Below, in pieces: positions 14,877 to 40,721 of a DNA stretch of 64,000 nucleotides. The stretch lies in contig CAKOTZ010000006.1 of assembly GCA_934120395.1 (NCBI GenBank), positions 16,914 to 80,913 of the forward strand, given 5' to 3'. The stretch is from an uncultured Clostridia bacterium. Lineage in GTDB: Bacteria; Bacillota; Clostridia; TANB77; CAG-508. The notes under the pieces are model-generated. The model was not told where the DNA came from and made no database searches. It saw only the letters and a list, made by a program, of their open reading frames with translations. Position numbers and translations under genes: made by a program. The first letter of the stretch is position 1. Every line of letters begins with the position of its first letter.

Positions 14877-16850
14877 ATGTTTAAGAAGAAAAACAAAAAA
14901 GTACAAGAAGAACAAATTGCAAAAACTGAATATAAAAAAGAAGACTTCATAAAAGAAAATGTAAAGAACATAAAAGATTTAATTGCGCCAGCAGGTATAA
15001 ATGCTGGAAATGTTAATCATTTGGAAATCGTTTCAAACACTACAAGATATGCTAGAACTATGATTGTAGGAACAATTCCGAGAATGTGTACTTTCCCAGA
15101 ATTTTTAAGAAGCATGTATACATTTGGAGATATAAATGTATCTGTATTTATTAACCCAATTAGTGAAAGTACATCACAAACAGAATTGAACAGAACAATT
15201 AATGAATTAGAGTCAGAAAGAATTGTTGCTATTGATAGGGGAGATATAAACAGGGAGAGAATATTAGCACAAAAAAGAGCAGAAGCAGAAGAACTGAGAG
15301 ATGAAATTGCAAGTGGATTTAACAAGTTATTTGAATCTTCTATTATGTGTACTTTGTTTGCATACAGTTTAGAAGAATTAGATAAATATACCGAATTGCT
15401 TGCATCTGAAATGTCAAAAACATTAATAGGAGTTAAACCTGCATGGGCAATGCAAGATGAAGCCTTTCGTAGCAATCTACCATTTGGTGAAAATAAGATA
15501 AATAAAAAACACAGTTTTGATAGAAGATCAATGTCAACTGTTTTTCCATTCTTTACATCAGATGTTGGACATGACAGAGGAATTCCATTAGCGTTTAACA
15601 GACAAACTGGCTTGCCAATTTTATTTGATAATTTCAGTCCAACACTTTCTAATTATAACATGGTTGTTTTTGGAAAGTCTGGTGCTGGTAAAGGTGTTAC
15701 AATAAAAACGTTAACAGCACGTTCTTCAGTATTAATGGGGATAGAAAGTTTAGCTCTTGATGCTGAAGGTGAGTATGGAGTTGTTGCGGAGGCATTAGGT
15801 GGAATCAATGTTACTATAAGTCCAACATCAAAAACAGTTATAAACCTATTTGATTTGGAACCTGAGATAGTAAAGGATGAAATAACAGGTAAAGAAAGAA
15901 CAATATTAAGTGTTGAAAACAAGGTGGAGGACGTTACACAGGCTTTACTTACAATGGCAAGAGGTAGTACAAGAAGTCAGGAAGTAAACGAACTTACAAA
16001 ACAAATTATTGCTGAAGCTGTAGCAGAAGAATATGCCGCACTTGGAATTAACAATAATTTGGAAAGCTTATACATAAATGAAGGTCCAATTGTAAATAAA
16101 GATTATTTAGGTAGACCAAAAAAGGAAATGCCAACAATTGGTTCATGGTATAAAAGAATAGTTAAAAATGCTGAAAACAATACGAACCAAGATTATCGTT
16201 TTCATTATAGCTATTTGATTAAAGTTATGAAACAATATGTTAGAGAATATGAAGGTCAAATGGCATATTTTGATGGACAATCTACTTTTGAATTGCTAGA
16301 TGGTGTACCATTTATAAATTTGGATATATCAAATCTAGAAGAGCGTTTTGCAAGACCACTTGCACAACAAATACTTCTTTCATGGATTTGGGAAAAATAT
16401 GTTAAAAAGAATAGTGAGGACAAAGAAAAAGCCGTACAAAAAAGAGTACTAGTCGATGAAGCGTGGATGTTGCTTCCTTATCCAGAAGCGGTAGACTTCT
16501 TAAATACAATGGCAAGACGTGCTAGAAAAAGAAATGTTTCACTTGCAGTTGTTTCACAGAAGTTTCAAGACTTTTATGAGAAACCAGAAGTACAAGCTGT
16601 ACTTACATCATCAGATACAAAATTATTCCTAGCACAGGACAAATCAGAAATTGATTATATAAAAGAAGTATTTAAGCTAAGCGAAGGAGAAGCATATTTC
16701 TTAACAACCTGTAGTAGAGGTGAAGGACTATTAAAAGTTGGAGATGACACAGCGATAATTGCAATAAAGCCAACAAAGAAGGAGTTTGAATTTGTTGATA
16801 CAAACTTAAACAATTTAGCAAAAAAACAAGAGAGAAAAGTAAGAAGATAA
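14877..16850 (+). CDS. virB4: VirB4-family type IV secretion ATPase
   Basis: 657 aa. Walker A VFGKSGAGKGVT, Walker B RVLVDEAWML, and a typical VirB4 N-terminal domain. Confidence 0.85.
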   Translation: MFKKKNKKVQEEQIAKTEYKKEDFIKENVKNIKDLIAPAGINAGNVNHLEIVSNTTRYARTMIVGTIPRMCTFPEFLRSMYTFGDINVSVFINPISESTSQTELNRTINELESERIVAIDRGDINRERILAQKRAEAEELRDEIASGFNKLFESSIMCTLFAYSLEELDKYTELLASEMSKTLIGVKPAWAMQDEAFRSNLPFGENKINKKHSFDRRSMSTVFPFFTSDVGHDRGIPLAFNRQTGLPILFDNFSPTLSNYNMVVFGKSGAGKGVTIKTLTARSSVLMGIESLALDAEGEYGVVAEALGGINVTISPTSKTVINLFDLEPEIVKDEITGKERTILSVENKVEDVTQALLTMARGSTRSQEVNELTKQIIAEAVAEEYAALGINNNLESLYINEGPIVNKDYLGRPKKEMPTIGSWYKRIVKNAENNTNQDYRFHYSYLIKVMKQYVREYEGQMAYFDGQSTFELLDGVPFINLDISNLEERFARPLAQQILLSWIWEKYVKKNSEDKEKAVQKRVLVDEAWMLLPYPEAVDFLNTMARRARKRNVSLAVVSQKFQDFYEKPEVQAVLTSSDTKLFLAQDKSEIDYIKEVFKLSEGEAYFLTTCSRGEGLLKVGDDTAIIAIKPTKKEFEFVDTNLNNLAKKQERKVRR

Positions 16851-16875
16851 AAAATAAGTAATGGAAGGTGTGTTT

Positions 16876-18010
16876 ATGAAAAAAAGTATATCAATTATAT
16901 TAATAGCAATAATAATAATGTTAAACACACTATTTCCGTCAAATGTTTATGCAGACAATGAAAATAAGGAAGAAGAAACAAGCACATCACAGTCGTTATT
17001 TCAAAGCCAAGATTTTGATGAAGTAACAAAAGCACGGATTAAATGATGGAACAAACTTGATAGAACAAGGTCAAGCATCAATAAATGGCAAGAATCTACA
17101 ACTAACTGAAAGTGGCAATGTTTTTAAGACTATTGGAATAGGATTAATACAAGTGCTTGGTGGAATTCCGCAAGCAGTCAATGTGTTTTTGTCATTAGTT
17201 GTACAACCATATTATACAAATAATAGCAATAATGGTGAATTTCAGTGGTTTTCAATTCAAGATTTGATATATGGAAAAATAGGATTATTCGATATAAACT
17301 TTTTTAAAATACAAAATAATAGTAGTGGCGATAATATAAATACAACAATAAAAACACAAGTTAGCCAGTGGTATTATGTTGTAAGAAATATAGCTATGAT
17401 AGGAAGCTTACTGGCATTGGTGTATGTAGGAATACGTATGGCAATATCAACAGTTGCTTCTGACCAAGCAAAATATAAGCAGATGTTATTAATGTGGTTA
17501 AAAAGTTTTGTAGTATTGTTTGTACTTCCATACATATTTATATTTATTTTTTCAATTGGAGATGCTTTTATAGATATTGTAAAGCAGGTTGCTCCAAAAG
17601 AAAATTTGGATACAGTTATATTAGAAGCATTATATGGTGATATGAACAAAAATGATATTACAGCATCATTTTGGGCATTTATAAATTTATGTATGCTAAC
17701 ATATTTTAACGTAAAATTTTTTGGAAGATATTTATTCCGTTTATTAAAAATAGCATTTTTAATTATAATATCTCCATTAATAACTGTTACATATGCACTA
17801 GGAAAAGACAGCGCATATAAGGCATGGTTAGGTTCATTAATTGGAGCAATATTTATGCAAGTTGTACATATAGTAGTGTATTCAATATTTATGTTCTCAA
17901 CAGCAGAAATAGTAAAAGCAGTTCCAATTTTAATGACAGCATTCTTTATGGCAATGGAAAAAGGAGAAAGAATATTTAATTACGTATTTGGATTAGAGGA
18001 ACAAGAATAG
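16876..18010 (+). CDS. VirB6/TrbL-like polytopic membrane protein; frame changes +1 at CGG 17035-17037
   Basis: The signal-peptide ORF (MKKSISIILIAIIIMLNTLFPSNVYA...) joins the TM body via TKA|GLNDGTNLIEQGQASING. Paralogous to the core of 18077..20527 (shared WYYV.RN.A....L..VY.GI.MAISTVA). Confidence 0.65.
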
Positions 18011-18076
18011 AGAAACAATAGATAAAATTAACTTTTGTTAATTAAAAATTTTATCGATTAGAGGTTTGGTGAGAAA

Positions 18077-20527
18077 ATGAAAAACAAGTGCATGAAAATA
18101 CTGTCAATAATAGTATTAAGTGTTATTATAATAAATTGCATAGGAAATAGTGTTCAGGCAAGTTTGTTTGGCGATTTGGAAGATTGGTGGAATAAGCAAA
18201 ATGATAAGGCTAATCAAATAAGTGGTGGTGTTGCAGGACAAATACCAACAGGAACACCAACAACAGGTACTGGAACAACAAACAGTGGCGAATCAAATAG
18301 TGGTTCAAGCAGTAACTCTGGCACCAACTCTGGTAGCAGTTCGAGTAGCTCAAACAGTTCAAATAAGGGAACAGATCCAGGTGCAAAAGTGGGTAATGCA
18401 ACAGCTCAGAAGAAGGAACAAGATCTTATAGAAAAAGCAGCAACGGCATCAATTGGAGATGCTGCTGGAACCTTGGTAGATGGTGTAGTTGGAATTTTAA
18501 CAACACTTTTAAGAGTTGAAGTTTTATTGGTAGGATTTGCAGGACAATCACTTGCAACTGTAACAGCTAATAGTGCTGGAACCTTAGAAAATGATATAAT
18601 AAACATAGTAACACCAGACCAAATATTATTTAATCGTTTAGCAATTACAGATATAAACTTTTTTCAAACAGATAGTTTTGGAACAGGTAGTAATAAAAAA
18701 ACTCTAGATGCAAATAGTCCAGTAAAAAGCATACGTGAAGGCGTTGCAACATGGTATTATGTATTAAGAACAATGGCAGTTATAATTTTGCTTTGTATTT
18801 TAGTTTACATAGGAATAAAAATGGCAATATCAACTGTTGCTGAAGAAAAAGCTGTATATAAGCAATGGTTTGTTAATTGGCTTGTAAGTATGGCATTAGT
18901 ATTTGTATTACACTATATTATATTGATAGTTATAAATATCAACAATAGTTTTGTAGATTTGCTATATGGAGTAAGAAATCAAACTCTGGGGCAGAGCGAT
19001 TGGGGAAATTATGTTGCAGGATTAATGTTTAAGGGATTAAATCCATTTTCAGCATTAGGTTCTTGGACAGCAGTATTCGTATATTTAGGAATTGTTATAT
19101 TAACATTTGTTTTCCTAATAATGTACATAAAACGTATGATAACAATAGCCTTTTTAATAATTGTATCGCCAATAATAACAATAACTTATTCGATAGATAA
19201 ATTAAATGACAACAAGTCGCAAGCACTAAATACATGGTTTAGAGAATTTGCAGAAGCGGTATTAATACAGCCATTCCACTGTATAATATATTTAGTATTT
19301 ATTAGCTCTGCAATGTCTTGTATAAAAACATCAGGAACTTTAGCTGCTGGAATATTAGTAGTATTCTGTATGTTCTTTATATTCAAAGCAGAAGGTTTAA
19401 TTAAGAAAATATTTGGAATTAAATCAGAATCTGCTGGAAACGGTATGCAGTCTGCTATTGCTGTATTAGGAACGGTAGGTGCTGCTAAAGACCTTATGGG
19501 AAGAACAAAAGGATTAGTAGGAAAAAGTGCAGGAAGTGCGGCAAAAGCCCCTGGAACAGGTGCAAATACAGCTCCTGTAAATGTTAGCACAAATGCGGTA
19601 AAAACAAGCAATATGGCTGAACAAAACATGAAAAATGCGGATAATGTAAATATAGGCAGTGTTCAAAATATGAATGCGAATATACAGTCTGTTGGTGTGG
19701 CTAATTCTGGAGTAACAAATGTCTATGATTCAGAAAGATTAGCAACAATACATGCTGGAGGAATGAATACACAAACAGATTATGATTATCTAATGGGACA
19801 ACAAAGCGGTGCTAGTGAAAATGGTAAAAATAGCAATGAAAATTATACAATCGGTTCAGGAAATGGACTATCTAATGAAAGCATGCCAAATAAAAACGAA
19901 AATGCAAGTAATTTAACACCGGGAATTCACACTAGTGAGATTCCAGATGTAGGAGAAAATGCAGCAACTAATCCGAAGGAAAGAACTATTCCACAAAAAG
20001 CATTACATTTGGCTAAAATGGCAGGTGGAGCAGTTTGGAAGGCAAATAAAGCTGTTGCAGGCGCAGGAATGGCATCTGGTGTTACAGCTGCAGCAATGGC
20101 CAGCGTAGCTGGAAAAGATGTAGGAGAAATGATTGCAGCTGGATATACAGGATATCAAGCTGGAAAGGCAGCGAAGGAAACATTCGAAAACTTAAAAGAA
20201 CAAGGTGGAGATGCTTTAGCAAACTACATGAAGATAAGAAAGAATAATAATTCAGAAAGCTCAAATGCATCAAGTTCTACAACATCTAATAATCAACAAA
20301 GCAGTACGAGTAATGTAGATAGAAGAAAAAATAATAACAATACAAAAACGGCATCTAAGCCAGTAGCATCACAAGCAAAACCAATTTTTCATCCAGATAC
20401 GGAAGGAAAAAGTAGGGATAAAAGAAATAATGTAGTACAAACCCATGATGTAGGAGACAATGGTGAATTAAAGCAAAAGATGGAAGATGTATATAGTTCA
20501 CTAATGAATAATAATAACGGTGAATAA
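18077..20527 (+). CDS. large VirB6/TrbL-like membrane protein with Ser/Gly/Asn-rich extensions
   Basis: 816 aa. Signal peptide, low-complexity STGN region, multi-TM core homologous to the previous gene, and a long low-complexity C-terminus. Confidence 0.6.
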   Translation: MKNKCMKILSIIVLSVIIINCIGNSVQASLFGDLEDWWNKQNDKANQISGGVAGQIPTGTPTTGTGTTNSGESNSGSSSNSGTNSGSSSSSSNSSNKGTDPGAKVGNATAQKKEQDLIEKAATASIGDAAGTLVDGVVGILTTLLRVEVLLVGFAGQSLATVTANSAGTLENDIINIVTPDQILFNRLAITDINFFQTDSFGTGSNKKTLDANSPVKSIREGVATWYYVLRTMAVIILLCILVYIGIKMAISTVAEEKAVYKQWFVNWLVSMALVFVLHYIILIVININNSFVDLLYGVRNQTLGQSDWGNYVAGLMFKGLNPFSALGSWTAVFVYLGIVILTFVFLIMYIKRMITIAFLIIVSPIITITYSIDKLNDNKSQALNTWFREFAEAVLIQPFHCIIYLVFISSAMSCIKTSGTLAAGILVVFCMFFIFKAEGLIKKIFGIKSESAGNGMQSAIAVLGTVGAAKDLMGRTKGLVGKSAGSAAKAPGTGANTAPVNVSTNAVKTSNMAEQNMKNADNVNIGSVQNMNANIQSVGVANSGVTNVYDSERLATIHAGGMNTQTDYDYLMGQQSGASENGKNSNENYTIGSGNGLSNESMPNKNENASNLTPGIHTSEIPDVGENAATNPKERTIPQKALHLAKMAGGAVWKANKAVAGAGMASGVTAAAMASVAGKDVGEMIAAGYTGYQAGKAAKETFENLKEQGGDALANYMKIRKNNNSESSNASSSTTSNNQQSSTSNVDRRKNNNNTKTASKPVASQAKPIFHPDTEGKSRDKRNNVVQTHDVGDNGELKQKMEDVYSSLMNNNNGE

Positions 20528-20532
20528 GGCAG

Positions 20533-28814: not shown

Positions 28815-30023
28815 ATTATATTGCTAATATTAGCAGGAGTGAGTTTGTCAATGGTGCTAGGAGAAAATGGTTTAATTAACAAGGCACAGTCAAGTGTAAA
28901 CAAATACAAAGAGAGTAGCGAAAATGAACAAAAGCTATTAAATAGTATAGAAAATTATATGGATTTACAACTAAAATTACCAGGAGAAAAAGTAGATTTA
29001 CCAGATGGATGGAATAAAGATACAGTAGATGCAGTATTAGATGATAAGAAAAACACAATACCAGTACCAAAGAACTTCTATTATGTAGGAGGGAATTTAG
29101 ATAATGGAGTAATTATATCGGACAATTCAGCTGATGCCTATGATGGAAAAGTAGACAAAACAACATGGGAATATACAACAAGCTTAGTAGGCAACCAATT
29201 TGTATGGATACCATGCACAGAATCTGAATATCATAAGACAGAATGGGAAAGTCAAAGTCAATATGTTTATGGTGTATACGATAAATCGGGACCAAGTCAA
29301 GATGAAATAGATAAAGTTAAAAAATATAATGGTTTTTATGTAGGAAGATATGAAGCAGGGTTAGCAGACACAATAAAAGAATATACAGGAAATCAATTAA
29401 GCGATGGTTCAAATAGTCCAGGATATAATGTAGCAGGAATACCAAAGTCAAAGGCAGGAGAATTACCATGGATATTTATTAACCAAACAAATAGTAAAGC
29501 AAATGCAGAAAAAATGTATGAAAAAAATACTTGTGTAACAAGTGGACTAGTAACAGGAACACAATGGGACGTAATGTTAAACAAATTTATTGGAACAACA
29601 AATGCTAATAGAGTAACTTTTACAGAAGCAGACATGAAAAATTCAAGTAAATGGGGAAATTGTTATAATAATGACTTGATATATACAGGAAGGTCAGCAA
29701 CATTATTTAAGAATGGAAGTAGTGAGTATATAAGCCCATGGGGAGAAAAACAAATAAATGCGGAAACAAAAACAAATACATGTACCGAATATACAACTGG
29801 TGCCAGTAAGTCTACAGAAGCATATCATATTTATGATGTAGCAGGGAATGTATGGGAATGGACGGAGGAGGTCGGACAAGGCACTGCATATCGCGTCATT
29901 CGTGGTGGTTCTTGTGGGAATGATCAAGATACTAGTCCAGCGTGTTGGCGTTATTCTACTCTCAAAGATTATGAGGTGTACTATCACATCGGATTTCGTA
30001 CTGTATTGTATATAAAAAATTAG
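28761..30023 (+). CDS. pilin-like N-terminus plus FGE/C-type-lectin-fold protein (DGR-target paralog with diverged VR)
   Basis: 420 aa. N-terminus NKAITLIALIITIIILLILAGVSLSM. C-terminus YDVAGNVWEWTEE...RVIRGGSC...HIGFRTVLY. Confidence 0.8.
   Translation: MNLKSNKAITLIALIITIIILLILAGVSLSMVLGENGLINKAQSSVNKYKESSENEQKLLNSIENYMDLQLKLPGEKVDLPDGWNKDTVDAVLDDKKNTIPVPKNFYYVGGNLDNGVIISDNSADAYDGKVDKTTWEYTTSLVGNQFVWIPCTESEYHKTEWESQSQYVYGVYDKSGPSQDEIDKVKKYNGFYVGRYEAGLADTIKEYTGNQLSDGSNSPGYNVAGIPKSKAGELPWIFINQTNSKANAEKMYEKNTCVTSGLVTGTQWDVMLNKFIGTTNANRVTFTEADMKNSSKWGNCYNNDLIYTGRSATLFKNGSSEYISPWGEKQINAETKTNTCTEYTTGASKSTEAYHIYDVAGNVWEWTEEVGQGTAYRVIRGGSCGNDQDTSPACWRYSTLKDYEVYYHIGFRTVLYIKN
29893..30007 (+). other. 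VR-like segment not matching the local TR by adenine-only changes
   Basis: Aligns ungapped to the TR over 115 nt but differs at many C/G/T positions. Confidence 0.7.
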
Positions 30024-30148: not shown

Positions 30149-31414
30149 ATGAACAACAAATCAGCAAAGGGTATAACCCTTGTTGCCCTAATTATTACTA
30201 TAATCATTCTACTTATTTTGGCTGGAGTAAGTTTGTCAATGATATTAGGAGACAATGGGCTAATAAAAAAAGCACAAGCTAGTGTTGATGCATACCAACA
30301 AGCGGCATTAAATGAACAAAATTTACTAGATAGCATAGAAAGCTATATGGGAAATTACGGTTTACCAGAAAACACACCAACCACACCTGCAGGAACACAC
30401 GTAAAACCACCAGCAAAATGGTTAGGAACAATTGTAGATGCAGTGGCAGATGGAAAAGGCAACACATTTCCAGTGCCAAAAAGTTTTTACTACGTGGGTG
30501 GAGATTACACAAACGGAGTAATCATATCAGACGACCCAGCAGATGCATACGATGGAACAACAGATAAAACAACATGGGAATATACAACAAGTTTAGTAGG
30601 AAACCAATTTGTATGGATACCATGTACACCAGCAGAATATATAAAAACAAGTTGGGGCATGGTATATGGAGGCTATGATGCAGAAAGCGGAGCAGGAGCT
30701 GAAATGATGCAAGTAGCCAAATATGGAGGATTCTATGTAGGAAGATATGAAGCCGGCTTAGCAGACACAATAGCAGAATATACAGGAAATCAAATATCTT
30801 CTAGTTCAATTTATAATCTAGCAGGAATACCAAAATCAAAGGCAGGAGAATTACCATGGATATTTATCAGCCAAACAAATAGTAAGAAAAGTGCAGAAAA
30901 CATGTACAATACAGACGAAAAACATTCAGACTATGTAACAAGTGGACTAATAACAGGAACACAATGGGATGTAATGTTAAACAGATTTATTGGAACAACA
31001 AATGCTAATGGAGTAACTTTTACAGAAGCAGACATGAAAAATTCAAGTAAATGGGGTAATTATGCAAGTAGTGCAACAACATATACAGGAAGATCTGCAA
31101 CTCTATTTCAAAGTGGAAGTAATTGGTATATAAGTCCATGGGGAGCAAAGCAAACAGATGCAAAAACAGCAACATATACCGAATATACAACAGGAGCAAG
31201 TAAAAAAACAGAAGCATATCACACTTATGACATAGCAGGAAATGTATGGGAGTGGACGGAAGAAGTCGGACAAGGCACTGCATATCGCGTCCTTCGTGGC
31301 GGTTCTTGCGATAATGCTTCAGGTTCTTACCCAGCCTGCTGCCGCCATGGTAACAACTCTGTTTCCTTTGTGTACTATCTCGTCGGGTTCCGTGCCGTAC
31401 TTTACATCAAGTAG
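30149..31414 (+). CDS. DGR variable protein: pilin-like N-terminus plus FGE/C-type-lectin fold
   Basis: 421 aa. N-terminus AKGITLVALIITIIILLILAGVSLSM. C-terminus YDIAGNVWEWTEE...RVLRGGSCDNASGSYPACCRHGNNSVSFVYYLVGFRAVLY. Confidence 0.88.
   Translation: MNNKSAKGITLVALIITIIILLILAGVSLSMILGDNGLIKKAQASVDAYQQAALNEQNLLDSIESYMGNYGLPENTPTTPAGTHVKPPAKWLGTIVDAVADGKGNTFPVPKSFYYVGGDYTNGVIISDDPADAYDGTTDKTTWEYTTSLVGNQFVWIPCTPAEYIKTSWGMVYGGYDAESGAGAEMMQVAKYGGFYVGRYEAGLADTIAEYTGNQISSSSIYNLAGIPKSKAGELPWIFISQTNSKKSAENMYNTDEKHSDYVTSGLITGTQWDVMLNRFIGTTNANGVTFTEADMKNSSKWGNYASSATTYTGRSATLFQSGSNWYISPWGAKQTDAKTATYTEYTTGASKKTEAYHTYDIAGNVWEWTEEVGQGTAYRVLRGGSCDNASGSYPACCRHGNNSVSFVYYLVGFRAVLYIK
31287..31401 (+). other. 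DGR variable region (VR)
   Basis: 115 nt versus the TR: 12 mismatches, all at TR adenines. Confidence 0.9.
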
Positions 31415-31525: not shown

Positions 31526-31891
31526 ATGGCGGATAATAAAAAAGAATTGATATTAATTCCAAAGTCAGAAAAATATATTCAATATATGATTGAAGTAATT
31601 ATGAAGTTGCCTCGTACAGAGAAATTTAGTATTGGAACCGAATATAAAACAGCAATGTATAAAATGCTTGAAAATATTATGCTTTTAAGCAAGGTGCGAG
31701 CAGAGGAAAAAATAAATTACATCAATTATATAGATGCTGAACTTAATGTTCAAAGAATTTTCTTGAGAATAATGTATAAAAATCAGTGGATAGACGAGAA
31801 ACGTTTTAAAGTAGCTTCAGATTTAATATATGAATTAGGAAAATTAGTAGGAGGTCTTTTAAAATTCTATGGCCAGAACATTAAGAAATAA
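31526..31891 (+). CDS. avd: DGR accessory variability determinant (Avd-like four-helix bundle)
   Basis: 121 aa, helical and basic, immediately upstream of and overlapping the RT. Confidence 0.75.
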   Translation: MADNKKELILIPKSEKYIQYMIEVIMKLPRTEKFSIGTEYKTAMYKMLENIMLLSKVRAEEKINYINYIDAELNVQRIFLRIMYKNQWIDEKRFKVASDLIYELGKLVGGLLKFYGQNIKK

Positions 31892-32885
31892 ATTTGATGA
31901 GTATTTAACTTACGATAATCTAATGCGAGCTCATTTAGAGAGTAGGAAAAATAAGCGTTATAAAAAAGATATCATTTTGTTTGAAATTAAACAAGAAGAT
32001 TATATTAGATATTTATTGGAAGAACTAAAAAATGGTACATATAAGCATGGAGGCTATTCAATCTTTTATGTAAGAGAGCCTAAATTGAGAAAAGTAGAAA
32101 AATCAAGATATATAGATAGGGTCGTGCATAGATGGTTAGTAGATAATTTTTTCATTGATCTATATGTACCAACTTTTATATCAACAAGTTATGCTTGTTT
32201 AAAAGACAGGGGAACGCACAAAGCAGTATGTGATGTGCAAAAAGCAATGCAGCATTGCCTAAGAATATGGAATGAATACTATATATTAAAAATGGATGTT
32301 GCTAAATACTTTCAAAGCATTGATAAAAATATTTTGTTTAATATAATAAAGAAAAAAATTAAAGATAAAAAGGTACTATGGTTGGTAGAACAAATTATTT
32401 ATTCAAATAAGGGAGAAACGGGTATAGCCATAGGAAACTATACTTCACAGATATTTGCAAATTTATATTTAAATGAAGTAGATCAATATATAAAAAAAGA
32501 ATTGAAGGTTAAATATTATTTTAGGTATATGGATGATTCGATAATTCTTGTAAAAACTAAAAATGAGGCAAAATTAATATTAGAAAAAATAAGACAATTC
32601 TTAAGGGAAAATTTAAAATTAGAGTTAAACTCTAAAACTCAAATATTTAAGAATAAACAAGGTGTTAATTTTTGTGGATACAAAATTAATGAATACAGAA
32701 TGAAGGTAAGAGACAGAGGAAAGAAGAAACTTAAAAAAAAGATAAAAATATTAAAAGAAAATGTGAAAAATGGTAAAATGAGTAGTAAAGAGGCTAAGTT
32801 ATACCTGTGTGGGCATGTTGGATATATTAAATATGCAGATGTTCACAATTTAACTAGCAAGCTGTTTTATTTGCCGGAAGAATAA
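31869..32885 (+). CDS. DGR reverse transcriptase
   Basis: 338 aa with IAIGNYTSQIFANLYL (the DGR-type [I/L]GxxxSQ motif) and FRYMDDSIIL. Confidence 0.92.
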   Translation: MARTLRNKFDEYLTYDNLMRAHLESRKNKRYKKDIILFEIKQEDYIRYLLEELKNGTYKHGGYSIFYVREPKLRKVEKSRYIDRVVHRWLVDNFFIDLYVPTFISTSYACLKDRGTHKAVCDVQKAMQHCLRIWNEYYILKMDVAKYFQSIDKNILFNIIKKKIKDKKVLWLVEQIIYSNKGETGIAIGNYTSQIFANLYLNEVDQYIKKELKVKYYFRYMDDSIILVKTKNEAKLILEKIRQFLRENLKLELNSKTQIFKNKQGVNFCGYKINEYRMKVRDRGKKKLKKKIKILKENVKNGKMSSKEAKLYLCGHVGYIKYADVHNLTSKLFYLPEE

Positions 32886-32914: not shown

Positions 32915-33029
32915 GCGTCATTCGTGGCGGTTCTTGCAATAATGCTTCAGGTTCTAACCCAGCATGCTACCGCAATGGTAACAACTCTGTTTCCAATGTG
33001 AACTATAACATCGGGTTCCGTGCCGTACT
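32915..33029 (+). other. DGR template repeat (TR)
   Basis: Encodes VIRGGSCNNASGSNPACYRNGNNSVSNVNYNIGFRAVL. Rich in AAY codons. Non-coding position downstream of the RT. Confidence 0.9.
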
Positions 33030-33193: not shown

Positions 33194-33472
33194 ATGAATA
33201 AGTGTGTAATAAGTGGAAAAGTATTAGAAGAGATAAAGTTTGATTTCATATATAATAGTAAAAAACATGTATCTATAGCGAAATGTCCTATAAAATTAAA
33301 CAATGATTCAGTATTAAACGTTTTTGGACTAGACGATGAAGCTGATTATATGTATCGACATATAAAAGCGGGAGATATTATTGTTTGCTATGGAAAAATT
33401 AGAAGAATGGATGAAAAATTAGAAGTTGAAGTAATAGAAATAGAAAAAGTAAAGTTCAAAACGAGTCTATAA
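33194..33472 (+). CDS. hypothetical protein (92 aa, beta-rich)
   Basis: ORF with a plausible start. No family recognised. Confidence 0.35.
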   Translation: MNKCVISGKVLEEIKFDFIYNSKKHVSIAKCPIKLNNDSVLNVFGLDDEADYMYRHIKAGDIIVCYGKIRRMDEKLEVEVIEIEKVKFKTSL

Positions 33473-33484
33473 TTTATTTGCCAA

Positions 33485-33892
33485 TTAATTATAAATTTCT
33501 TGTAATTGTTTTTTAATCTGGTCTAGAAACTCAAAAGATTCTTTAAAACTAATATTATTCATGTCAATGGCCATTATAGACTGAATAATATTTTGTGTTT
33601 TCATGTTGTTTAAATAATCGGAGTAATTTTCAATTTTTGAATAGTTTAAATCAATAACTTCAAAAGGAATATTAAAGTTGCTTAGCTGTTTTGTATAGTA
33701 TTCTAATCTTTTTTGAGGAAATCCACATTTAGTAACGCTGTCGTTTAAATTTGTTATTTTAAAATCAAAAAGTTCTGAAATTTTTGTGGCATCTTCGTTT
33801 AGTGCAATATAAAAAATGCCACTTTTAAATAAATATATTGTTGTATTATCCTTATTCTTTAATTTTAAGTATTCTGTATATAATTTGCTCAT
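33485..33892 (-). CDS. stand-alone MutS domain I-like protein
   Basis: 135 aa from the ATG after aggggg. LYTEYLKLKNKDNTTIYLFKSGIFYIALNEDATKISELFDFKIT...CGFP mirrors the MutS N-terminal mismatch-binding domain. Confidence 0.5.
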   Translation of the reverse strand: MSKLYTEYLKLKNKDNTTIYLFKSGIFYIALNEDATKISELFDFKITNLNDSVTKCGFPQKRLEYYTKQLSNFNIPFEVIDLNYSKIENYSDYLNNMKTQNIIQSIMAIDMNNISFKESFEFLDQIKKQLQEIYN

Positions 33893-34744: not shown

Positions 34745-35996
34745 ATGAAAAAAAGTTTTTGCAAATTATTAGTTATTACATTAATAGTAATATTTTTAGT
34801 CCAGATAAGTGTGTATGCAAATGAAGAAGAACATGAAAATATAGAAATACAAGAAATATGGAACGAAATAAAAGAAACTGATGCAAATATTGTAAAAGAA
34901 CCTACAATAAATTCAAAGGCAGCAGTTGTATTGGATAGAAAATCAAAAACAGTAATTTTTGATAAAAATGCAAATCAAAAAAGAGCAATGGCGTCTACAA
35001 CAAAAATTATGACTGCCATTTTAGTGCTAGAAAAAGGTAATTTAAATGATTTGATTGAGGTATCACAAAAAGCTGCAAATACAGGTGGATCAAGATTAGG
35101 GTTAAAAAAAGGAGATAAAATAACATTAAATGATTTACTTTATGGATTAATGTTACGCTCTCGGAAATGATGCGGCAGTACAAATTGCTGAGCATATTGG
35201 AGGCAGTGTAGAGGAATTTGCACAAATGATGAATCAAAAAGCAAAAGAATTAAATTTGGTAAATACGCATTTTGTAACGCCACATGGATTAGATAATACT
35301 GACCACTATACAACTCCATACGAATTAGCCATATTAACAGATTATGCACTAGAAAATAGTAAATTTGCTAAAATTGTAAATACAAATACATGCACAATAA
35401 CCATTAATAATTCTCCAATAGTTTTGAATAATACAAATGAATTATTAGGTACTTTAAATGGTGTAAATGGTGTAAAAACAGGTTTTACCAATAATGCAGG
35501 AAGATGTCTTGTAACTTCTACAACGCGAAATGGATGGCAAATTGTTGTAGTTGTATTAGGTGCAGATACTAAAAGAAATAGAACAAAAGATAGCATTAGT
35601 TTGATAGAGTATACTTTTAAAAATTATGAAATTGTAAATATAAAGGATAAGTTAAAAAGAAGTTTTAATAATGAAAAGAAAAAACAGGAAGCTTTAATAG
35701 AAATTGAAAAAGGAAAAAATGATAAAATTATATTAGAATTAGGGGAGATATCTAATACAGAATATCCTATAAAAAATAGTGAATTAAAAAATTTAACTTG
35801 CAATATAGATGTAGTTCATTACATAAAAGCACCAATTAAGGAAGGCACTGTGGTAGGAAATTTGGAAGTGATGATTGGTGATAAAAATATTTGCAATGTA
35901 AATATTCTTTGTAAGTATACTGTTGATAAGAAGGGGGTGTGGGATTATTTTTCGGATTTAGTTTGTAATATAGGGAAGTATATATTGGAAATTTAA
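34745..35996 (+). CDS. D-alanyl-D-alanine carboxypeptidase (S11 PBP5-type); frame changes +1 at CGG 35162-35164
   Basis: Signal peptide. SxxK box (ASTTKIM), SxN box restored only after the shift (LRS|GNDAAVQIAE), and KTG box (VKTGFT). Confidence 0.85.
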
Positions 35997-36060: not shown

Positions 36061-36135
36061 TGGAGGCGCCAGTCGGAATCGAACCGACGAATCAGAGTTT
36101 TGCAGACTCGTGCCTTACCGCTTGGCTATGGCGCC
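36061..36135 (-). tRNA. tRNA-Cys (GCA)
   Basis: Reverse complement GGCGCCATAGCCAAGCGGTAAGGCACGAGTCTGCAAAACTCTGATTCGTCGGTTCGATTCCGACTGGCGCCTCCA. 7-nt anticodon loop CTGCAAA, encoded CCA. Confidence 0.9.
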
Positions 36136-36206
36136 ATTAATATAATGTATGTTAAGAACTAATAAAAGATGAATAAAAAATAAAAAATTATTCATCTTTT
36201 TTGTAG

Positions 36207-36282
36207 TGGAGCGGGAAACGGGGCTCAAACCCGCGACCTCTGCCTTGGCAAGGCAGCGCTCTATCAACTGAGCTATTCCCGC
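36207..36282 (-). tRNA. tRNA-Gly (GCC)
   Basis: Reverse complement GCGGGAATAGCTCAGTTGATAGAGCGCTGCCTTGCCAAGGCAGAGGTCGCGGGTTTGAGCCCCGTTTCCCGCTCCA. Canonical 7-nt loop TTGCCAA. Confidence 0.9.
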
Positions 36283-36528: not shown

Positions 36529-36593
36529 ATGCTATTGACTTAAGATAAAAACATAGTAAAATAATAATAGTTTTGAATAAGGAAGGTAAGAAT

Positions 36594-39500
36594 ATGAAAC
36601 GAAGTAAAGTGTTATTAGGACTAGTTATGACATTAGTAATGTTTGCTATTCCGGCATCTGCTTTTGCAACAACTTCTCATGAACTTGGAATTGTACAAAA
36701 TAGAGAAGATGGATATGCTTACAGAATAGGAGTAGGTTCTGGAGGAGATGCAAGAAATTTAGATTTATGGAAAATTGTGGAATACTTAAATGGGGGAGTA
36801 ACGTGGAATAACGCAATTTATTGTATTAAGGGTGGACCTGGTTTTGGAGGAACAATTACAGAACCAACGGATAAACGTACTTATGATGTAACTTATGATA
36901 TGAAAAAAGTAGGAGATATTCCTTCTAATTATAAGAGTACGTTACCAAGTGATACTGCAAATACAGTAACTCTTAATATAGGTGGTGTAGAAACAGAAGT
37001 ATCTTATACAAATTATAATGCAGTTTTATGGATTTTAGATAATATGTATCTACCTAAACATCCAGATGAAACACAAAGACAAGAAATGAGAGATTCTTTG
37101 TTAAAAGCAGCATTTAAAGCTCAATTAGAAGATGCAGATTTAGTACCTCCATTTGAAATTAGTCAAATAAATTTAACAGATTCAGATATTGAGGTAATAC
37201 AACAACTTGCTATTTGGCATTTTACAAATCCAGATGATATATATAATGTAGGAAATACTTTGCCAGCAATTCAAATTAGCGAAAAAGATAGTACAACTAA
37301 TTATAACGCTTATAGTATGGAGTCTAAAAGACAAGAAGATGCACAAACTTTATATACATACTTAGTTAATAATGCTATGATAAATGCAAATAAATATGGT
37401 ACAGGTGAAAATAGACATTTAACAGCACCAGTACAATTACTAAATACAAATTTATCATCAACATATATTGATGATGATGTGGTTGTTGGACCATTTAAAA
37501 TAGAAAAAGAATCTGAATTAGCTTATACCTTAAGACCATCAGTATTAAATCAAAACAATGAAGCTATTACTAATTACACTTTATATAAAAAAGGAACTGA
37601 AGGAAAGCCTGTTAAAGCAGGTGAAACTGAAACAATAGAAAGCTTAGTTGGACAAGAGTTTTACATAGCAGTTCCAAAAACATCAAATGTAACAGAAGTA
37701 ACATTAAAATTAATGGTTGATTATTATGAATCAGAAGCAAACTTCTGGACTGTTAGTGGTACAAATAGTGAACAACCAGTTGTGATGGTAGAAAAGAAAT
37801 TACAAACAGCAGAACAAAAAGTAGGATTAAACTATAATTTTGATTTAGCATTAAGAAAATTTATTACAGCAGTTAATAAAACAGCTGTAACTGATCGTGT
37901 ACCACAGGTAAAAGTAAGTGAAAACGGAAAAATAACTTATGAACATAAAAAAACACCTCTTGTTGTAGAGTCTGGAGACCTTGTAACATATACAATTCGT
38001 ATTTATAACGAAGGATTAGTTTCTGGATTTGCACAAGAAGTAAAAGATGATATTCCAGCTGGTTTAAAATTCTTACCAAATAATGAAACAAATAAGAAAT
38101 ATGGATGGAAATTGACAGAAGATGGTAAGAGTATTGTAACTGATTATCTAAAGAAAGATGATAATAATACAAATTTATTAAAAGCATTTGATTCAAAAAA
38201 CATGACTGTACCAGATTATAAAGATGTAAATGTTGTGTTTGAAGTTACAGAACCAAATTCTTCAAAGAATACAATTATAAATACAGCAGAAATTAGTGAT
38301 GATGCAGATGAACATGGAAAACCAATAGATGATATAGATTCAACTCCAAATAATAATAAAGATGGAGAAGATGATATAGACAAAGAATATATCAAATTAA
38401 AAGAATTTGATTTAGCATTAAGAAAATTCATTACAGCAGTTAATGATAACAAAATAGAAGAAAGAGTACCACAAGTAAAAGTTGATGAAAATGGAAAAAT
38501 TACATATACACATCCAAAAACACCAGTAGCTGTTGCAAATGGGGATATCGTAGTTTATACAATTAGAATATATAATGAAGGACAGACAGATGGCTATGCA
38601 AAAGAAATTACAGATGATATACCTGAAGGAACAGAATTTATAATTGATAATGAAATAAACGTACAATATCGTTGGAAATTATCAGCAGATACAAAATCTG
38701 TTACAACAGATTACTTATCAATGGAAAGAGACGAAGATAACTTATTAAAAGCTTTCAATAAAGACAAAATGACCACACCAGAATATAAAGATGTAAAGAT
38801 TGCTTTAAAAGTTACAGAATCAAATGCATCAAAGAATACAATTATAAATACAGCAGAAATTAGTGATGATGCAGATAAAAATGGAAAACCAGTAGAGGAT
38901 ATAGATTCGACTCCAGGAAATAATAAAGATGGAGAAGATGATATAGACAAAGAATATATCAAATTAAAAGAATTTGATTTAGCATTAAGAAAATTTATTA
39001 CATCAGTTAATGACAAGGAAGTAACAACAAGAATACCACAAGTAAAAGTGGACGAGAATGGAAAAATTACTTATGAACACACAAAAGAGCCAGTTTTAGT
39101 TGCAAATTCAGATATTGTAACATATACAATTAGAATATATAATGAAGGTACAATTAACGGATATGCAGAAAGTGTAAGAGATGATGTACCAGATGGATTA
39201 GAGTTCTTGCCAGATAATGAAACAAATAAGAAATATGGATGGAAATTATCAGAAGATGGAAAATCAATTACAACAGATTATCTATCAAAAGATAACAGCA
39301 AAGATAATTTACTTAAAGCATTTGACAATGTTGCTATGAAAACACCAGATTACAAAGATGTAAAAGTTGCATTCAAAGTAACAGATAAAATATTGCCAAA
39401 AGATAGAGTTTTGATAAATACAGCAGAAATTAATGATGATACAGACGAAAATGGAAAACCAGTAGATGATATAGATTCAACACCAGGAAACAATAAAGAT

Positions 39501-40721
39501 GGTGAAGATGACATTGATAAGGAATATGTAAAAGTACAATATTTTGATTTGGCATTAAGAAAATTCATTACAGCAGTTAATGATACTGAAGTAACAACAA
39601 GAATACCACAAGTAAGTGTAGATGAGAATGGAAAAGTTACTTATACACATACAAAAGAACCAGTATTAGTTGCAAATTCAAATATTGTAACATATACAAT
39701 TAGAGTATTTAATGAAGGTACAATGGACGGCTATGCAGAAAGCGTAAGAGACGATGTACCAGATGGATTAGAGTTCTTAGCAGATAATGAAATTAACAAA
39801 CAATATGGATGGAAATTATCAGAAGATGGAAAAACAATTACAACAGATTATCTATCAAAAGATAAGGCTGAGGATAATATAATCAAAGCATTTGATAGAG
39901 AAAAAATGGATACACCAGCATACAAAGATGTAAAGGTTGCATTTAAAGTAACAGAGGAAATGTTACCAGGAGACAGAATTTTAATAAATACAGCAGAAAT
40001 CAATAAAGATAGAAATGAAACAGATACACCAGATATAGATTCAACACCAGGAAACAATAAAGATGGTGAAGATGATATTGATAAAGAGTATGTAAAAGTA
40101 CAATATTTTGATTTATCTTTATTAAAATGGGTTAACAAAGTAATTGTTACTGAAGATGGTGAAACAACTGAAAGAGATACAGGACATACTGGTTTAGAAA
40201 ATCCAGAACCAATTGTAAAAGTTGAATTAGATAGAAAGAAATTAAAAAACACAACAGTTAAATTTGAATATACAATTAAAATTACAAATGAAGGTGAAAT
40301 CGCTGGATATGCTAAGGAAATTAGCGATTATATTCCAGATGGTTTAGAGTTTATCCAAGCTGACAATCCAAACTGGACAGAAGCAGATGGAAAGGTAACA
40401 ACTAGAGGATTAGAGGGAACTTTATTACAACCAGGTGAAAGTGCAGATGTTAAAATTATATTAACATGGATTAATAATTCAGAAAACATGGGAGTTAAGA
40501 CAAACGTTGCCGAAATTAGCGAAGATTATAATGAATTTGGAGCAAAGGATATAGATTCAACACCAAACAATAAGGTTGAAGGCGAAGATGATATTGACGA
40601 TGCACCAGTAATGCTTTCAATTAAAACTGGTGGAGCAACAGTAGTTTACTTTGGATTAATTGGAATTGTATTAGCAACAATTGCAGGTGGAATTATATTG
40701 ATTAAACGTTATGTATTGTAA
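36594..40721 (+). CDS. giant repeat-containing surface protein (DUF11/conserved-repeat type) with C-terminal anchor
   Basis: Signal peptide MKRSKVLLGLVMTLVMFAIPASAFA. Five ~190-aa repeats (FDLALRKFIT..YTIRIYNEG..DIDSTPGNNKDGEDDIDKEY). C-terminus SIKTGGATVVYFGLIGIVLATIAGGIILIKRYVL. Confidence 0.8.
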   Translation: MKRSKVLLGLVMTLVMFAIPASAFATTSHELGIVQNREDGYAYRIGVGSGGDARNLDLWKIVEYLNGGVTWNNAIYCIKGGPGFGGTITEPTDKRTYDVTYDMKKVGDIPSNYKSTLPSDTANTVTLNIGGVETEVSYTNYNAVLWILDNMYLPKHPDETQRQEMRDSLLKAAFKAQLEDADLVPPFEISQINLTDSDIEVIQQLAIWHFTNPDDIYNVGNTLPAIQISEKDSTTNYNAYSMESKRQEDAQTLYTYLVNNAMINANKYGTGENRHLTAPVQLLNTNLSSTYIDDDVVVGPFKIEKESELAYTLRPSVLNQNNEAITNYTLYKKGTEGKPVKAGETETIESLVGQEFYIAVPKTSNVTEVTLKLMVDYYESEANFWTVSGTNSEQPVVMVEKKLQTAEQKVGLNYNFDLALRKFITAVNKTAVTDRVPQVKVSENGKITYEHKKTPLVVESGDLVTYTIRIYNEGLVSGFAQEVKDDIPAGLKFLPNNETNKKYGWKLTEDGKSIVTDYLKKDDNNTNLLKAFDSKNMTVPDYKDVNVVFEVTEPNSSKNTIINTAEISDDADEHGKPIDDIDSTPNNNKDGEDDIDKEYIKLKEFDLALRKFITAVNDNKIEERVPQVKVDENGKITYTHPKTPVAVANGDIVVYTIRIYNEGQTDGYAKEITDDIPEGTEFIIDNEINVQYRWKLSADTKSVTTDYLSMERDEDNLLKAFNKDKMTTPEYKDVKIALKVTESNASKNTIINTAEISDDADKNGKPVEDIDSTPGNNKDGEDDIDKEYIKLKEFDLALRKFITSVNDKEVTTRIPQVKVDENGKITYEHTKEPVLVANSDIVTYTIRIYNEGTINGYAESVRDDVPDGLEFLPDNETNKKYGWKLSEDGKSITTDYLSKDNSKDNLLKAFDNVAMKTPDYKDVKVAFKVTDKILPKDRVLINTAEINDDTDENGKPVDDIDSTPGNNKDGEDDIDKEYVKVQYFDLALRKFITAVNDTEVTTRIPQVSVDENGKVTYTHTKEPVLVANSNIVTYTIRVFNEGTMDGYAESVRDDVPDGLEFLADNEINKQYGWKLSEDGKTITTDYLSKDKAEDNIIKAFDREKMDTPAYKDVKVAFKVTEEMLPGDRILINTAEINKDRNETDTPDIDSTPGNNKDGEDDIDKEYVKVQYFDLSLLKWVNKVIVTEDGETTERDTGHTGLENPEPIVKVELDRKKLKNTTVKFEYTIKITNEGEIAGYAKEISDYIPDGLEFIQADNPNWTEADGKVTTRGLEGTLLQPGESADVKIILTWINNSENMGVKTNVAEISEDYNEFGAKDIDSTPNNKVEGEDDIDDAPVMLSIKTGGATVVYFGLIGIVLATIAGGIILIKRYVL
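37838..40106 (+). repeat. four tandem coding repeats of about 567 bp (a fifth, diverged unit follows)
   Basis: Unit starts (tttgatttagcattaagaaaatt) at 37838, 38406, 38973 and 39543. The diverged unit starts at 40107. Confidence 0.85.

What the first reader, a model, noticed from the sequence alone, without database searches (positions are those of the whole stretch)
33485..33892. Stand-alone MutS domain I protein in the island between the DGR and mazEF
A 135-aa minus-strand protein aligns by eye to the mismatch-recognition domain I of MutS (YTEYLKLKNKDNTTIYLFKSGIFYIALNEDATKISELFDFKITNL...KCGFPQKRLEYYTKQL). It has none of the connector, clamp or ATPase domains. Its position is suggestive for interference with or mimicry of mismatch repair, because it sits next to a retroelement whose cDNA creates A-mismatches during retrohoming. 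That link is speculative.
Basis: inference. Interest (0 to 1): 0.5.

Follow-up and report, generated by a model that had tools for sequence, protein, structure and literature searches.

The report
MutS-like accessory gene of a DGR
This small gene is a cut-down copy of the mismatch-repair sensor MutS that belongs to a diversity-generating retroelement; the class (MSL) is already described, its function is untested, and it most likely keeps the host's mismatch repair from erasing the mutations the retroelement writes.

The parts
33485..33892 (-). MSL (MutS-like) DGR accessory gene, 135 aa plus stop codon
   Evidence: ORF; Pfam MutS_I E 1.3e-11; family of about 135-aa proteins; linked to DGR RT/Avd in 63 of 80 genomes
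33638..33892 (-). MSL residues 1-85: MutS domain I fold. The F27 codon (33812-33814) is equivalent to E. coli F36 / Taq F39. I29 replaces E38/E41.
33491..33625 (-). MSL residues 90-134: helix-loop-helix homologous to the MutS C-terminal dimerisation/tetramerisation domain. The motif is degenerate in this copy (ISFKESFEFL instead of the family's L[ST]PxEA).
   Evidence: Helices 90-107 and 116-134. Family C-terminal fragments hit TIGR01070 positions 798-840 of 840. The C-terminal profile's top PDB hits are the E. coli MutS CTD, 3zlj_C and 2ok2_A, E 0.003.
33194..33472 (+). Small OB-fold, SSB-like protein (92 aa, no C-terminal tail), a second candidate accessory gene. Its stop codon is 12 nt from the MSL stop codon, and the two genes are convergent.
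   Evidence: Weak Pfam OB-fold hit; annotated as SSB (weak) in homologous loci; its profile hits the window's own ssb at E 1.7e-5; best PDB hits are SSB-like proteins, E 0.02-0.2; found in 20 of 80 MSL loci; OB-seeded loci carry RT and MSL
32915..33029 (+). Template repeat (TR)
   Evidence: Repeat family D2; 12 of 12 internal mismatches to VR are at TR adenines
31869..32885 (+). DGR reverse transcriptase
   Evidence: Pfam RVT_1 E 5e-17
31526..31891 (+). Avd (bAvd-like accessory variability determinant)
   Evidence: Pfam bAvd E 3e-17
30149..31414 (+). Variable (target) protein with a C-terminal FGE-sulfatase/C-type-lectin fold. VR is at 31287-31401.
   Evidence: Pfam FGE-sulfatase; TR/VR comparison
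28761..30023 (+). Paralogue of the target protein. Its VR-like end (29893-30010) differs from TR at all four bases, so it is not a current target.
   Evidence: Pfam; 40 mismatches spread over A, C, G and T

Best explanation
The gene encodes an MSL (MutS-like) accessory protein of the adjacent diversity-generating retroelement. The protein is MutS with domains II-V removed. It keeps the mismatch-recognition domain I, with the base-stacking Phe, joined by a short linker to the MutS C-terminal helix-loop-helix oligomerisation domain. Shown here: the homology, the fold, the cassette membership, the conservation pattern and purifying selection. Inferred: MSL dimerises through the C-terminal hairpin and binds the densely mismatched heteroduplex that forms when the adenine-mutagenised cDNA pairs with the parental VR strand. 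It has no ATPase, clamp or MutL-recruiting connector. It also lacks the Glu that, in MutS, couples mismatch binding to licensing of repair. It would therefore form a dead-end complex that keeps host MutS off the heteroduplex, so the new VR sequence survives instead of being repaired back to the parental one. The co-encoded tail-less SSB-like protein may likewise coat the cDNA without recruiting host exonucleases. Confidence that the gene is a DGR accessory gene of the MSL class is about 0.95. The confidence value given below refers to the anti-repair mechanism.
For: Identity: MutS_I profile, fold, register to MutS F36/E38.
Cassette membership: a real DGR sits next door. An RT lies within 2 kb in 63 of 80 species-level loci, median gap 379 nt, with no nearest RT between 2 and 10 kb. 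The same module occurs in unrelated flanks. MSL-Avd-RT genes overlap in distant members.
Design: Phe is kept in 112 of 113 representatives, and the Glu position is I/L/V in 105 of 113. The C-terminal module is homologous to the MutS CTD, which dimerises as a double helix-loop-helix (PMC3783165; PMC1636413).
Biological need: deleting host mutS raises retrohoming 5-10 fold in B. ovatus, and repair is all-or-nothing (bioRxiv 10.1101/2024.11.15.621889). Engineered DGR systems add dominant-negative MutL or delete mutS and sbcB.
Selection: dN/dS 0.08-0.30.
Against: No experiment on any MSL was found. In MutS, isolated domain I is only part of the DNA-binding surface, because the clamp domains supply much of the affinity (general knowledge), so tight mismatch binding by MSL is unproven. 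I could not test whether the host genomes encode MutS/MutL. This copy's own C-terminal motif is degenerate (P to F, A to S), and its fragment alone did not hit MutS (protein 9). MSL as a whole is acidic to neutral (pI 5.5 here, family mean 6.9), although the domain I half is basic (pI 8.7). In Wu et al.'s 2018 survey only 16 of 372 DGRs carried MSL, so it is dispensable for the basic mechanism.
Confidence: 0.45

Rival explanations
1. Poison subunit. MSL uses its MutS-type C-terminal hairpin to pair with the C-terminal domain of host MutS rather than with itself. The resulting hetero-oligomers cannot signal repair, giving a general dominant-negative effect on MutS rather than local shielding of the heteroduplex.
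For: The C-terminal module is homologous to the MutS dimerisation/tetramerisation domain. That domain is critical for MutS tetramerisation and for its function in repair and anti-recombination (PMC1636413). Dominant-negative MutL is what engineers add to DGR systems.
Against: General inhibition would make the host a mutator, which is costly. No host MutS sequence was available to test compatibility of the two hairpins. Homodimerisation explains retention of the hairpin equally well.
Confidence: 0.2
2. Positive cofactor of retrohoming. MSL recognises an unusual DNA or RNA-DNA structure, such as the cDNA:target junction, a D-loop or mispaired bases. It then promotes cDNA integration, or it recruits host MutS so that repair is directed against the parental strand and fixes the mutations on both strands.
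For: In most loci the gene order is MSL-Avd-RT on one strand, and in a distant member the three genes overlap (14 and 16 nt), as expected for a subunit of the RT/Avd machinery. Wu et al. report three DGR RTs with a weak MutS_I-like C-terminal extension. In polyvalent proteins of conjugative elements, MutS-I domains are proposed to bind ssDNA or mispaired regions (PMC5512222).
Against: RT and Avd alone make adenine-mutagenised cDNA in the Bordetella phage system (general knowledge). Most DGRs lack MSL. Where tested, host MutS acts against retrohoming, not for it, although that element lacks Msl.
Confidence: 0.2
3. A decaying fragment of mutS, or an unrelated neighbour that happens to sit beside the DGR.
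For: It is short, lies on the opposite strand to the RT, and sits next to a toxin-antitoxin pair.
Against: Full-length conservation in hundreds of clusters, dN/dS well below 1, tight linkage to DGR genes in different genomic flanks, and mazEF not linked.
Confidence: 0.02

Closest known systems
MSL (MutS-like) DGR accessory genes, Architecture D of Wu et al. 2018 (PMC5758913); Msl of the Bacteroides Bfr, Bth and Bun DGRs (bioRxiv 10.1101/2024.11.15.621889)
   Same: Small protein (the published MSL range is 112-283 aa), homologous to the MutS mismatch-recognition domain, encoded inside a DGR cassette that also has avd and no HRDC gene. Function untested in both cases.
   Different: I could not compare it directly with the published MSL sequences, because the supplement is not held. 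The papers I read describe homology only to the MutS or mismatch-recognition domain. In the library I searched I did not find the C-terminal MutS oligomerisation domain, the Phe-kept/Glu-lost pattern or the companion OB-fold gene reported.
Bacterial MutS (MutS1), the mismatch-repair ATPase
   Same: Domain I sequence and fold with the stacking Phe, and the extreme C-terminal helix-loop-helix (E. coli residues ~828-851).
   Different: Lacks the connector, core/lever, clamp and ATPase domains (about 700 residues). The Glu of F-x-E is replaced by Ile/Leu/Val. It therefore cannot hydrolyse ATP, form a sliding clamp or recruit MutL.
[quoted passage not shown] 2017, PMC5512222)
   Same: MutS domain I used outside MutS by a mobile element in Firmicutes and Bacteroidetes. 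One such protein (P0214) scores 105 bits with the MSL profile, while MutS proper scores about 20 bits.
   Different: Those domains are repeats inside proteins of thousands of residues, together with ArdC-N and other domains. This one is a stand-alone 135-aa protein with a MutS C-terminal domain, in a DGR.
Engineered suppression of mismatch repair in recombineering and DGR tools (dominant-negative MutL E32K; mutS and sbcB deletions)
   Same: Proposed to work the same way: it prevents repair of a heavily mismatched incoming single strand so that the edits persist.
   Different: Natural and element-encoded. It mimics MutS rather than MutL. The effect has not been demonstrated.
Avd and HRDC, the other DGR accessory proteins
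   Same: Small nucleic-acid-related proteins encoded in the cassette.
   Different: Unrelated folds. Avd is strongly basic (pI 9.5 here), whereas MSL is acidic to neutral.

Membership tests
MutS domain I (Pfam PF01624) | Significant match to the family profile above the curated threshold | tested here: met
   E 1.3e-11, 45.2 bits against a cut-off of 20.6
MutS domain I (Pfam PF01624) | Domain I fold | tested here: met
MutS domain I (Pfam PF01624) | Phe of the F-x-E mismatch-binding motif | tested here: met
   F27 aligns with Taq F39 and E. coli F36. It is invariant in A1 and present in 112 of 113 diverse representatives.
MutS domain I (Pfam PF01624) | Glu of the F-x-E motif | tested here: not met
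   The position is I29. Across 113 representatives it is I, L or V in 105, and Glu is not among the common residues.
Canonical MutS mismatch-repair ATPase | Connector, core/lever, clamp and ABC ATPase domains (II-V) | tested here: not met
   The protein has 135 aa. Only MutS_I is found. Full-length MutS models match only their first ~75 positions.
Canonical MutS mismatch-repair ATPase | C-terminal helix-loop-helix dimerisation/tetramerisation domain | tested here: met
   At family level, 5 of 10 C-terminal fragments hit TIGR01070 at positions 798-840 of 840, as the top or only hit. The C-terminal profile's best PDB hits are the E. coli MutS CTD, E 0.003. The window copy has the two helices, but its own fragment did not score.
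DGR accessory protein MSL (Wu et al. 2018) | Small protein (112-283 aa) homologous to MutS | tested here: met
   135 aa; definition
DGR accessory protein MSL (Wu et al. 2018) | Encoded within a DGR cassette (RT, TR/VR with adenine-specific differences) | tested here: met
   RT and Avd. TR/VR mismatches are 12 of 12 at adenines. The gene lies about 455 nt from the TR. Homologues are linked to an RT in 63 of 80 loci.
DGR accessory protein MSL (Wu et al. 2018) | Co-occurs with avd and not with HRDC | tested here: met
   bAvd at 31526-31891. No HRDC domain among the ten neighbouring proteins scanned.
DGR accessory protein MSL (Wu et al. 2018) | Sequence relationship to the 16 founding MSL proteins (for example the Legionella DGR copy) | not testable with these tools
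   The supplementary sequences are not held, and no collection with those genomes was available.
DGR accessory protein MSL (Wu et al. 2018) | Contributes to mutagenic retrohoming | not testable with these tools
   This needs genetics. No published test was found.
MutS-I of polyvalent proteins (Iyer et al. 2017) | The domain is embedded in a large multidomain protein, usually with ArdC-N | tested here: not met
   Stand-alone 135-aa protein. Contrast P0214: 2323 aa with DUF285, MutS_I repeats and ArdC-N.
Bacterial SSB (for the neighbouring OB-fold gene 33194-33472) | OB-fold related to SSB, plus an acidic C-terminal partner-binding tail | tested here: inconclusive
   The OB similarity is weak but consistent. 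The family is 81-101 aa and ends right after the OB fold, with no acidic tail visible.

The most novel reading that the evidence does not exclude
MSL and the tail-less SSB-like protein together form a natural kit for evading host repair in one subclass of cellular DGRs. In this reading, a dimeric mini-MutS (domain I plus the MutS C-terminal domain, Phe kept, Glu lost) caps the mismatched cDNA:VR heteroduplex or poisons host MutS. A mini-SSB coats the cDNA without the tail that recruits exonucleases. These would counter the two host restrictions, MutS and ExoI, that experiments on Msl-less DGRs have identified.
Probability: 0.3. Interest if true: 0.7.

Novelty: new member of a known kind. Interest (0 to 1): 0.45.

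Why it matters
How the heavily mismatched retrohoming intermediate of a DGR escapes mismatch repair is an open mechanistic question. Host MutS was recently shown to cut DGR output 5-10 fold, and engineers disable mismatch repair to make DGR tools work. A naturally evolved, element-encoded MutS mimic would explain how some DGRs solve this problem. It could also serve as a compact add-on for targeted-mutagenesis tools. The anatomy found here turns the vague label "MutS-like" into specific, testable predictions. These are the retained wedge Phe, the lost licensing Glu, the retained MutS oligomerisation domain and the companion tail-less SSB-like gene.

Tried and rejected
- mazEF as part of the module: rejected. 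MazF matched in 1 of 90 loci and MazE in none.
- AAA_14/DUF4143 ATPase as a linked gene (seen near the DGR here and in L094-096): rejected, 1 of 90 loci.
- Phage origin: no tblastn match in 50,697 phage records, and only one partial hit in IMG/VR.
- Supplementary tables of Wu et al., for a direct comparison with the founding MSLs: not held.
- The AlphaFold database library for fold search: not available.
- Metagenome scan with the single OB protein: found nothing. The 18-sequence OB alignment was too divergent to seed a scan. A 6-sequence alignment worked.
- Promoter and terminator scan around the gene: no more sites than in shuffled sequence, and no terminator between the convergent genes.
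- GC-rich hairpin or cruciform downstream of VR as a possible MSL ligand: none found.
- mutS in the window or in the fetched loci: none found.
- My impression that the target proteins have a prepilin-type N-terminus: no profile support.

Full report
**Observation**

The minus-strand ORF ending at 33485 can start at ATG 33922 (145 aa) or ATG 33892 (135 aa). Every homologue begins MSKLY, and AGGGGG lies 7 nt upstream of 33892.

- The protein matches Pfam MutS_I at E 1.3e-11 (45.2 bits, cut-off 20.6, profile positions 5-78 of 113), with no other significant domain.
- Full-length MutS models of NCBIfam match only over their first ~75 positions.
- An AlphaFold2 model built on 42 homologues has mean pLDDT 91.7.
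- It is a real gene. There are 468 homologues at E<=1e-3, nearly all of about 135 aa with only PF01624.
- There are 295 clusters at 50% identity with E<=1e-10, nearly all matching end to end.
- Pairwise dN/dS is 0.08-0.30.

**Surroundings**

The gene is the last component of a DGR cassette:

- a paralogue of the target protein, 28761-30023;
- the target protein, 30149-31414;
- bAvd, 31526-31891;
- the reverse transcriptase, 31869-32885;
- the template repeat, 32915-33029;
- a 92-aa OB-fold gene, 33194-33472;
- the MutS-like gene, convergent, with its stop codon 12 nt from the OB gene's stop codon.

TR differs from the VR of the second target gene (31287-31401) at 12 internal positions, and all 12 are TR adenines. 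That is the signature of mutagenic retrohoming. The paralogue's repeat differs from TR at 40 positions spread over all four bases, so it is not a current target.

Downstream lie mazE and mazF and a split D-Ala-D-Ala carboxypeptidase gene. Upstream lie type IV secretion (conjugation) genes.

**Linkage to DGRs elsewhere**

A scan of one genome per species found 168 loci with a homologue, and the 80 best were kept. All are uncultured gut Clostridia and relatives. I searched them with profiles built from the window's RT, Avd, target and OB proteins.

- A DGR RT lies within 3 kb of the homologue in 63 of 80 loci.
- Among the 33 loci with at least 3 kb of sequence on both sides, 28 have an RT; most of the other loci without one are cut by contig ends.
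- The gap to the nearest RT has a median of 379 nt and a maximum of 1998 nt, although the loci reach 10 kb to each side.

Three arrangements recur:

- MSL-Avd-RT on one strand, in 34 loci, 6 of them with the OB gene after the TR;
- the window's arrangement, target-Avd-RT-TR-OB with MSL convergent, in 16 loci;
- MSL-RT convergent with a second MSL paralogue followed by Avd, in 10 loci.

The same module sits between unrelated flanking genes in different genomes. In a distant member the three genes overlap by 14 and 16 nt. MazF was found in 1 of 90 loci and MazE in none, so the "island between the DGR and mazEF" description does not hold. The gene belongs to the DGR.

**What is already known**

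Wu et al. 2018 defined exactly this class as MSL (MutS-like). It was found in 16 of 372 DGRs, at 112-283 aa and near-neutral pI. It always occurs with avd and never with HRDC (their Architecture D), and one copy is in the Legionella DGR (PMC5758913). A 2024 preprint notes Msl in three Bacteroides DGRs. In a Bacteroides DGR that lacks Msl, it shows that deleting host mutS raises retrohoming 5-10 fold, with all-or-nothing repair of the heteroduplex. Later engineering papers delete mutS and sbcB or add dominant-negative MutL, and one cites the MutS-like homologues in natural DGRs as the reason. I found no experiment on any MSL. The finding is therefore a new member of a known kind, and its mechanism is open.

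**What I can add**

1. The F-x-E motif. The HMM alignment to Taq and E. coli MutS puts G25-I-F27-Y-I29 on G-D-F-Y-E. Among 113 diverse representatives, Phe is present in 112. The Glu position is Ile, Leu or Val in 105. The stacking wedge is kept. The Glu that in MutS contacts the mismatched base and licenses ATP-dependent repair is lost across the family. That role of Glu38 is from my own knowledge of Lebbink et al. 2006.

2. The C-terminal half. The two C-terminal helices (90-107 and 116-134) are not a random tail.
   - The family consensus there is I-x-x-I-D-x-N-x-L-[ST]-P-x-E-A-x-x-x-L-x-x-L-K.
   - Ten C-terminal fragments were scanned against 18,950 NCBIfam models. Five hit the full-length MutS model TIGR01070 as their top or only match, always at its last positions (798-840 of 840), with E 1e-3 to 1.5e-2.
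   - A profile of 39 C-terminal fragments was searched against 177,635 PDB sequences. The best hits were the isolated E. coli MutS C-terminal domain (3zlj_C, 2ok2_A; E 0.003), followed by full-length MutS aligned at residues 828-851, [24 protein letters not shown].
   - That domain is the helix-loop-helix that dimerises and tetramerises MutS (PMC1636413; PMC3783165).
   - MSL is therefore MutS with domains II-V removed.
   - The window copy belongs to a subfamily in which the motif has drifted (ISFKESFEFL), and its own fragment did not score.

3. The OB-fold gene. The 92-aa OB-fold gene belongs to the cassette too.
   - It is present in 20 of 80 MSL loci.
   - I seeded a separate metagenome scan with the OB protein. 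An RT lies directly upstream in 8 of the 11 loci found. MSL is present in 5 of them, including each of the four (L099, L101, L106, L107) in which both Avd and an upstream MSL were detected; in L105 the contig reaches past Avd and no MSL lies there.
   - Its profile hits the window's own ssb gene (48530-48949, in rpsF-ssb-rpsR) at E 1.7e-5.
   - Its best PDB matches are SSB-like proteins, at E 0.02-0.2.
   - The family is 81-101 aa and ends right after the OB fold, with no acidic tail.

4. Relatives of domain I. The MSL profile scores 105 bits on a 2323-aa polyvalent protein that carries MutS_I repeats and ArdC-N. It scores only about 20 bits on MutS proper. MSL domain I is thus closest to the mobile-element MutS-I domains described by Iyer et al. 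2017.

**Mechanism**

Shown: homology, fold, cassette membership, conservation pattern and purifying selection.

Inferred:

- MSL dimerises through the MutS-type hairpin.
- It binds the mismatch-dense heteroduplex between the cDNA and the parental VR.
- It has no ATPase, clamp or connector, and no licensing Glu, so it forms a dead-end complex.
- That complex keeps host MutS from triggering removal of the incoming strand.

This matches the need shown by the mutS deletion data and what engineers do artificially. The tail-less SSB-like protein could protect the cDNA from exonucleases in the same spirit, given that deleting sbcB raises DGR activity.

The rivals are these:

- heteromerisation with host MutS through the shared C-terminal domain, acting as a general poison subunit;
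- a positive role in integration, or redirection of repair against the parental strand; the operon coupling with Avd and RT fits this.

A pseudogene or a chance neighbour is excluded.

Weak points:

- There is no experiment on any MSL.
- Domain I alone may bind DNA weakly.
- I could not check whether the host genomes have mutS.
- The whole protein is acidic (pI 5.5), although its domain I half is basic (pI 8.7).

**Verdict**

The class is already published, so novelty is modest. The architectural details and the companion OB gene were not found in the papers I could search, and they make the anti-repair hypothesis directly testable.

Noticed in passing
window 33194-33472 (+); also L007 6453-6725, L021 12153-12395, L099 2421-2666: A small tail-less SSB-like OB-fold gene sits just downstream of the TR. 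It is present in 20 of 80 MSL-bearing DGR loci. OB-seeded loci carry an RT directly upstream in 8 of 11. I did not find it named as a DGR accessory gene in the papers searched.
   Followed up: partly
P0214 (2323 aa, ENA contig of 14.6 kb): A polyvalent protein with DUF285 repeats, several MutS_I repeats and an ArdC-N domain. It scores far higher with the MSL profile (105 bits) than MutS itself does (about 20 bits). This suggests that MSL domain I and the MutS-I domains of conjugative elements share an origin.
   Followed up: partly
L058 10001-12507, L059, L060, L065, L087 and others: Ten of 80 loci carry two MSL paralogues in one cassette, arranged MSL-RT convergent with MSL2-Avd and the TR presumably between them. 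Why two copies are needed is unexplained.
   Followed up: no
L091-L093 5001-5390; L001-L003: Some MSL genes have no RT within 5-6 kb. One set follows a T2SSE/pilus-like operon. Another set abuts FGE-sulfatase-type target-like genes. These may serve remote DGR targets or be orphans.
   Followed up: no
window 33605-33631 (residues 88-96, ENYSDYLNN): A strongly conserved motif at the linker and the start of the first C-terminal helix in the window's subfamily (N89, D92, Y93, N95 and N96 at 90% or more). It is not conserved in the wider family. No function is assigned.
   Followed up: no
window 14877-23169: Conjugation and type IV secretion genes: a TraG/VirB4-like ATPase, a T4SS pilin and a large cell-wall hydrolase. 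The DGR may lie on or beside an integrative conjugative element.
   Followed up: no
window 34745-35170 and 35226-35996: A D-alanyl-D-alanine carboxypeptidase (Peptidase_S11 plus PBP5_C) is split into two ORFs. This is either a frameshifted pseudogene or a sequencing error.
   Followed up: no
window 28761-30023 and 30149-31414: There are two tandem paralogous target-type proteins, and only the second matches the TR. Both start with a hydrophobic N-terminal segment that looked pilin-like to me, but no prepilin profile matched.
   Followed up: partly
window 26404-27756; L094 7541-8794: An AAA_14/DUF4143 ATPase lies near the DGR both here and in a distant MSL locus. It was found in only 1 of 90 loci overall, so this is probably coincidence.
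   Followed up: yes
window 36573-40721: A 1382-aa surface protein with a thioester domain and DUF11 repeats, a putative adhesin, lies just beyond two tRNA genes (36061-36282).
   Followed up: no
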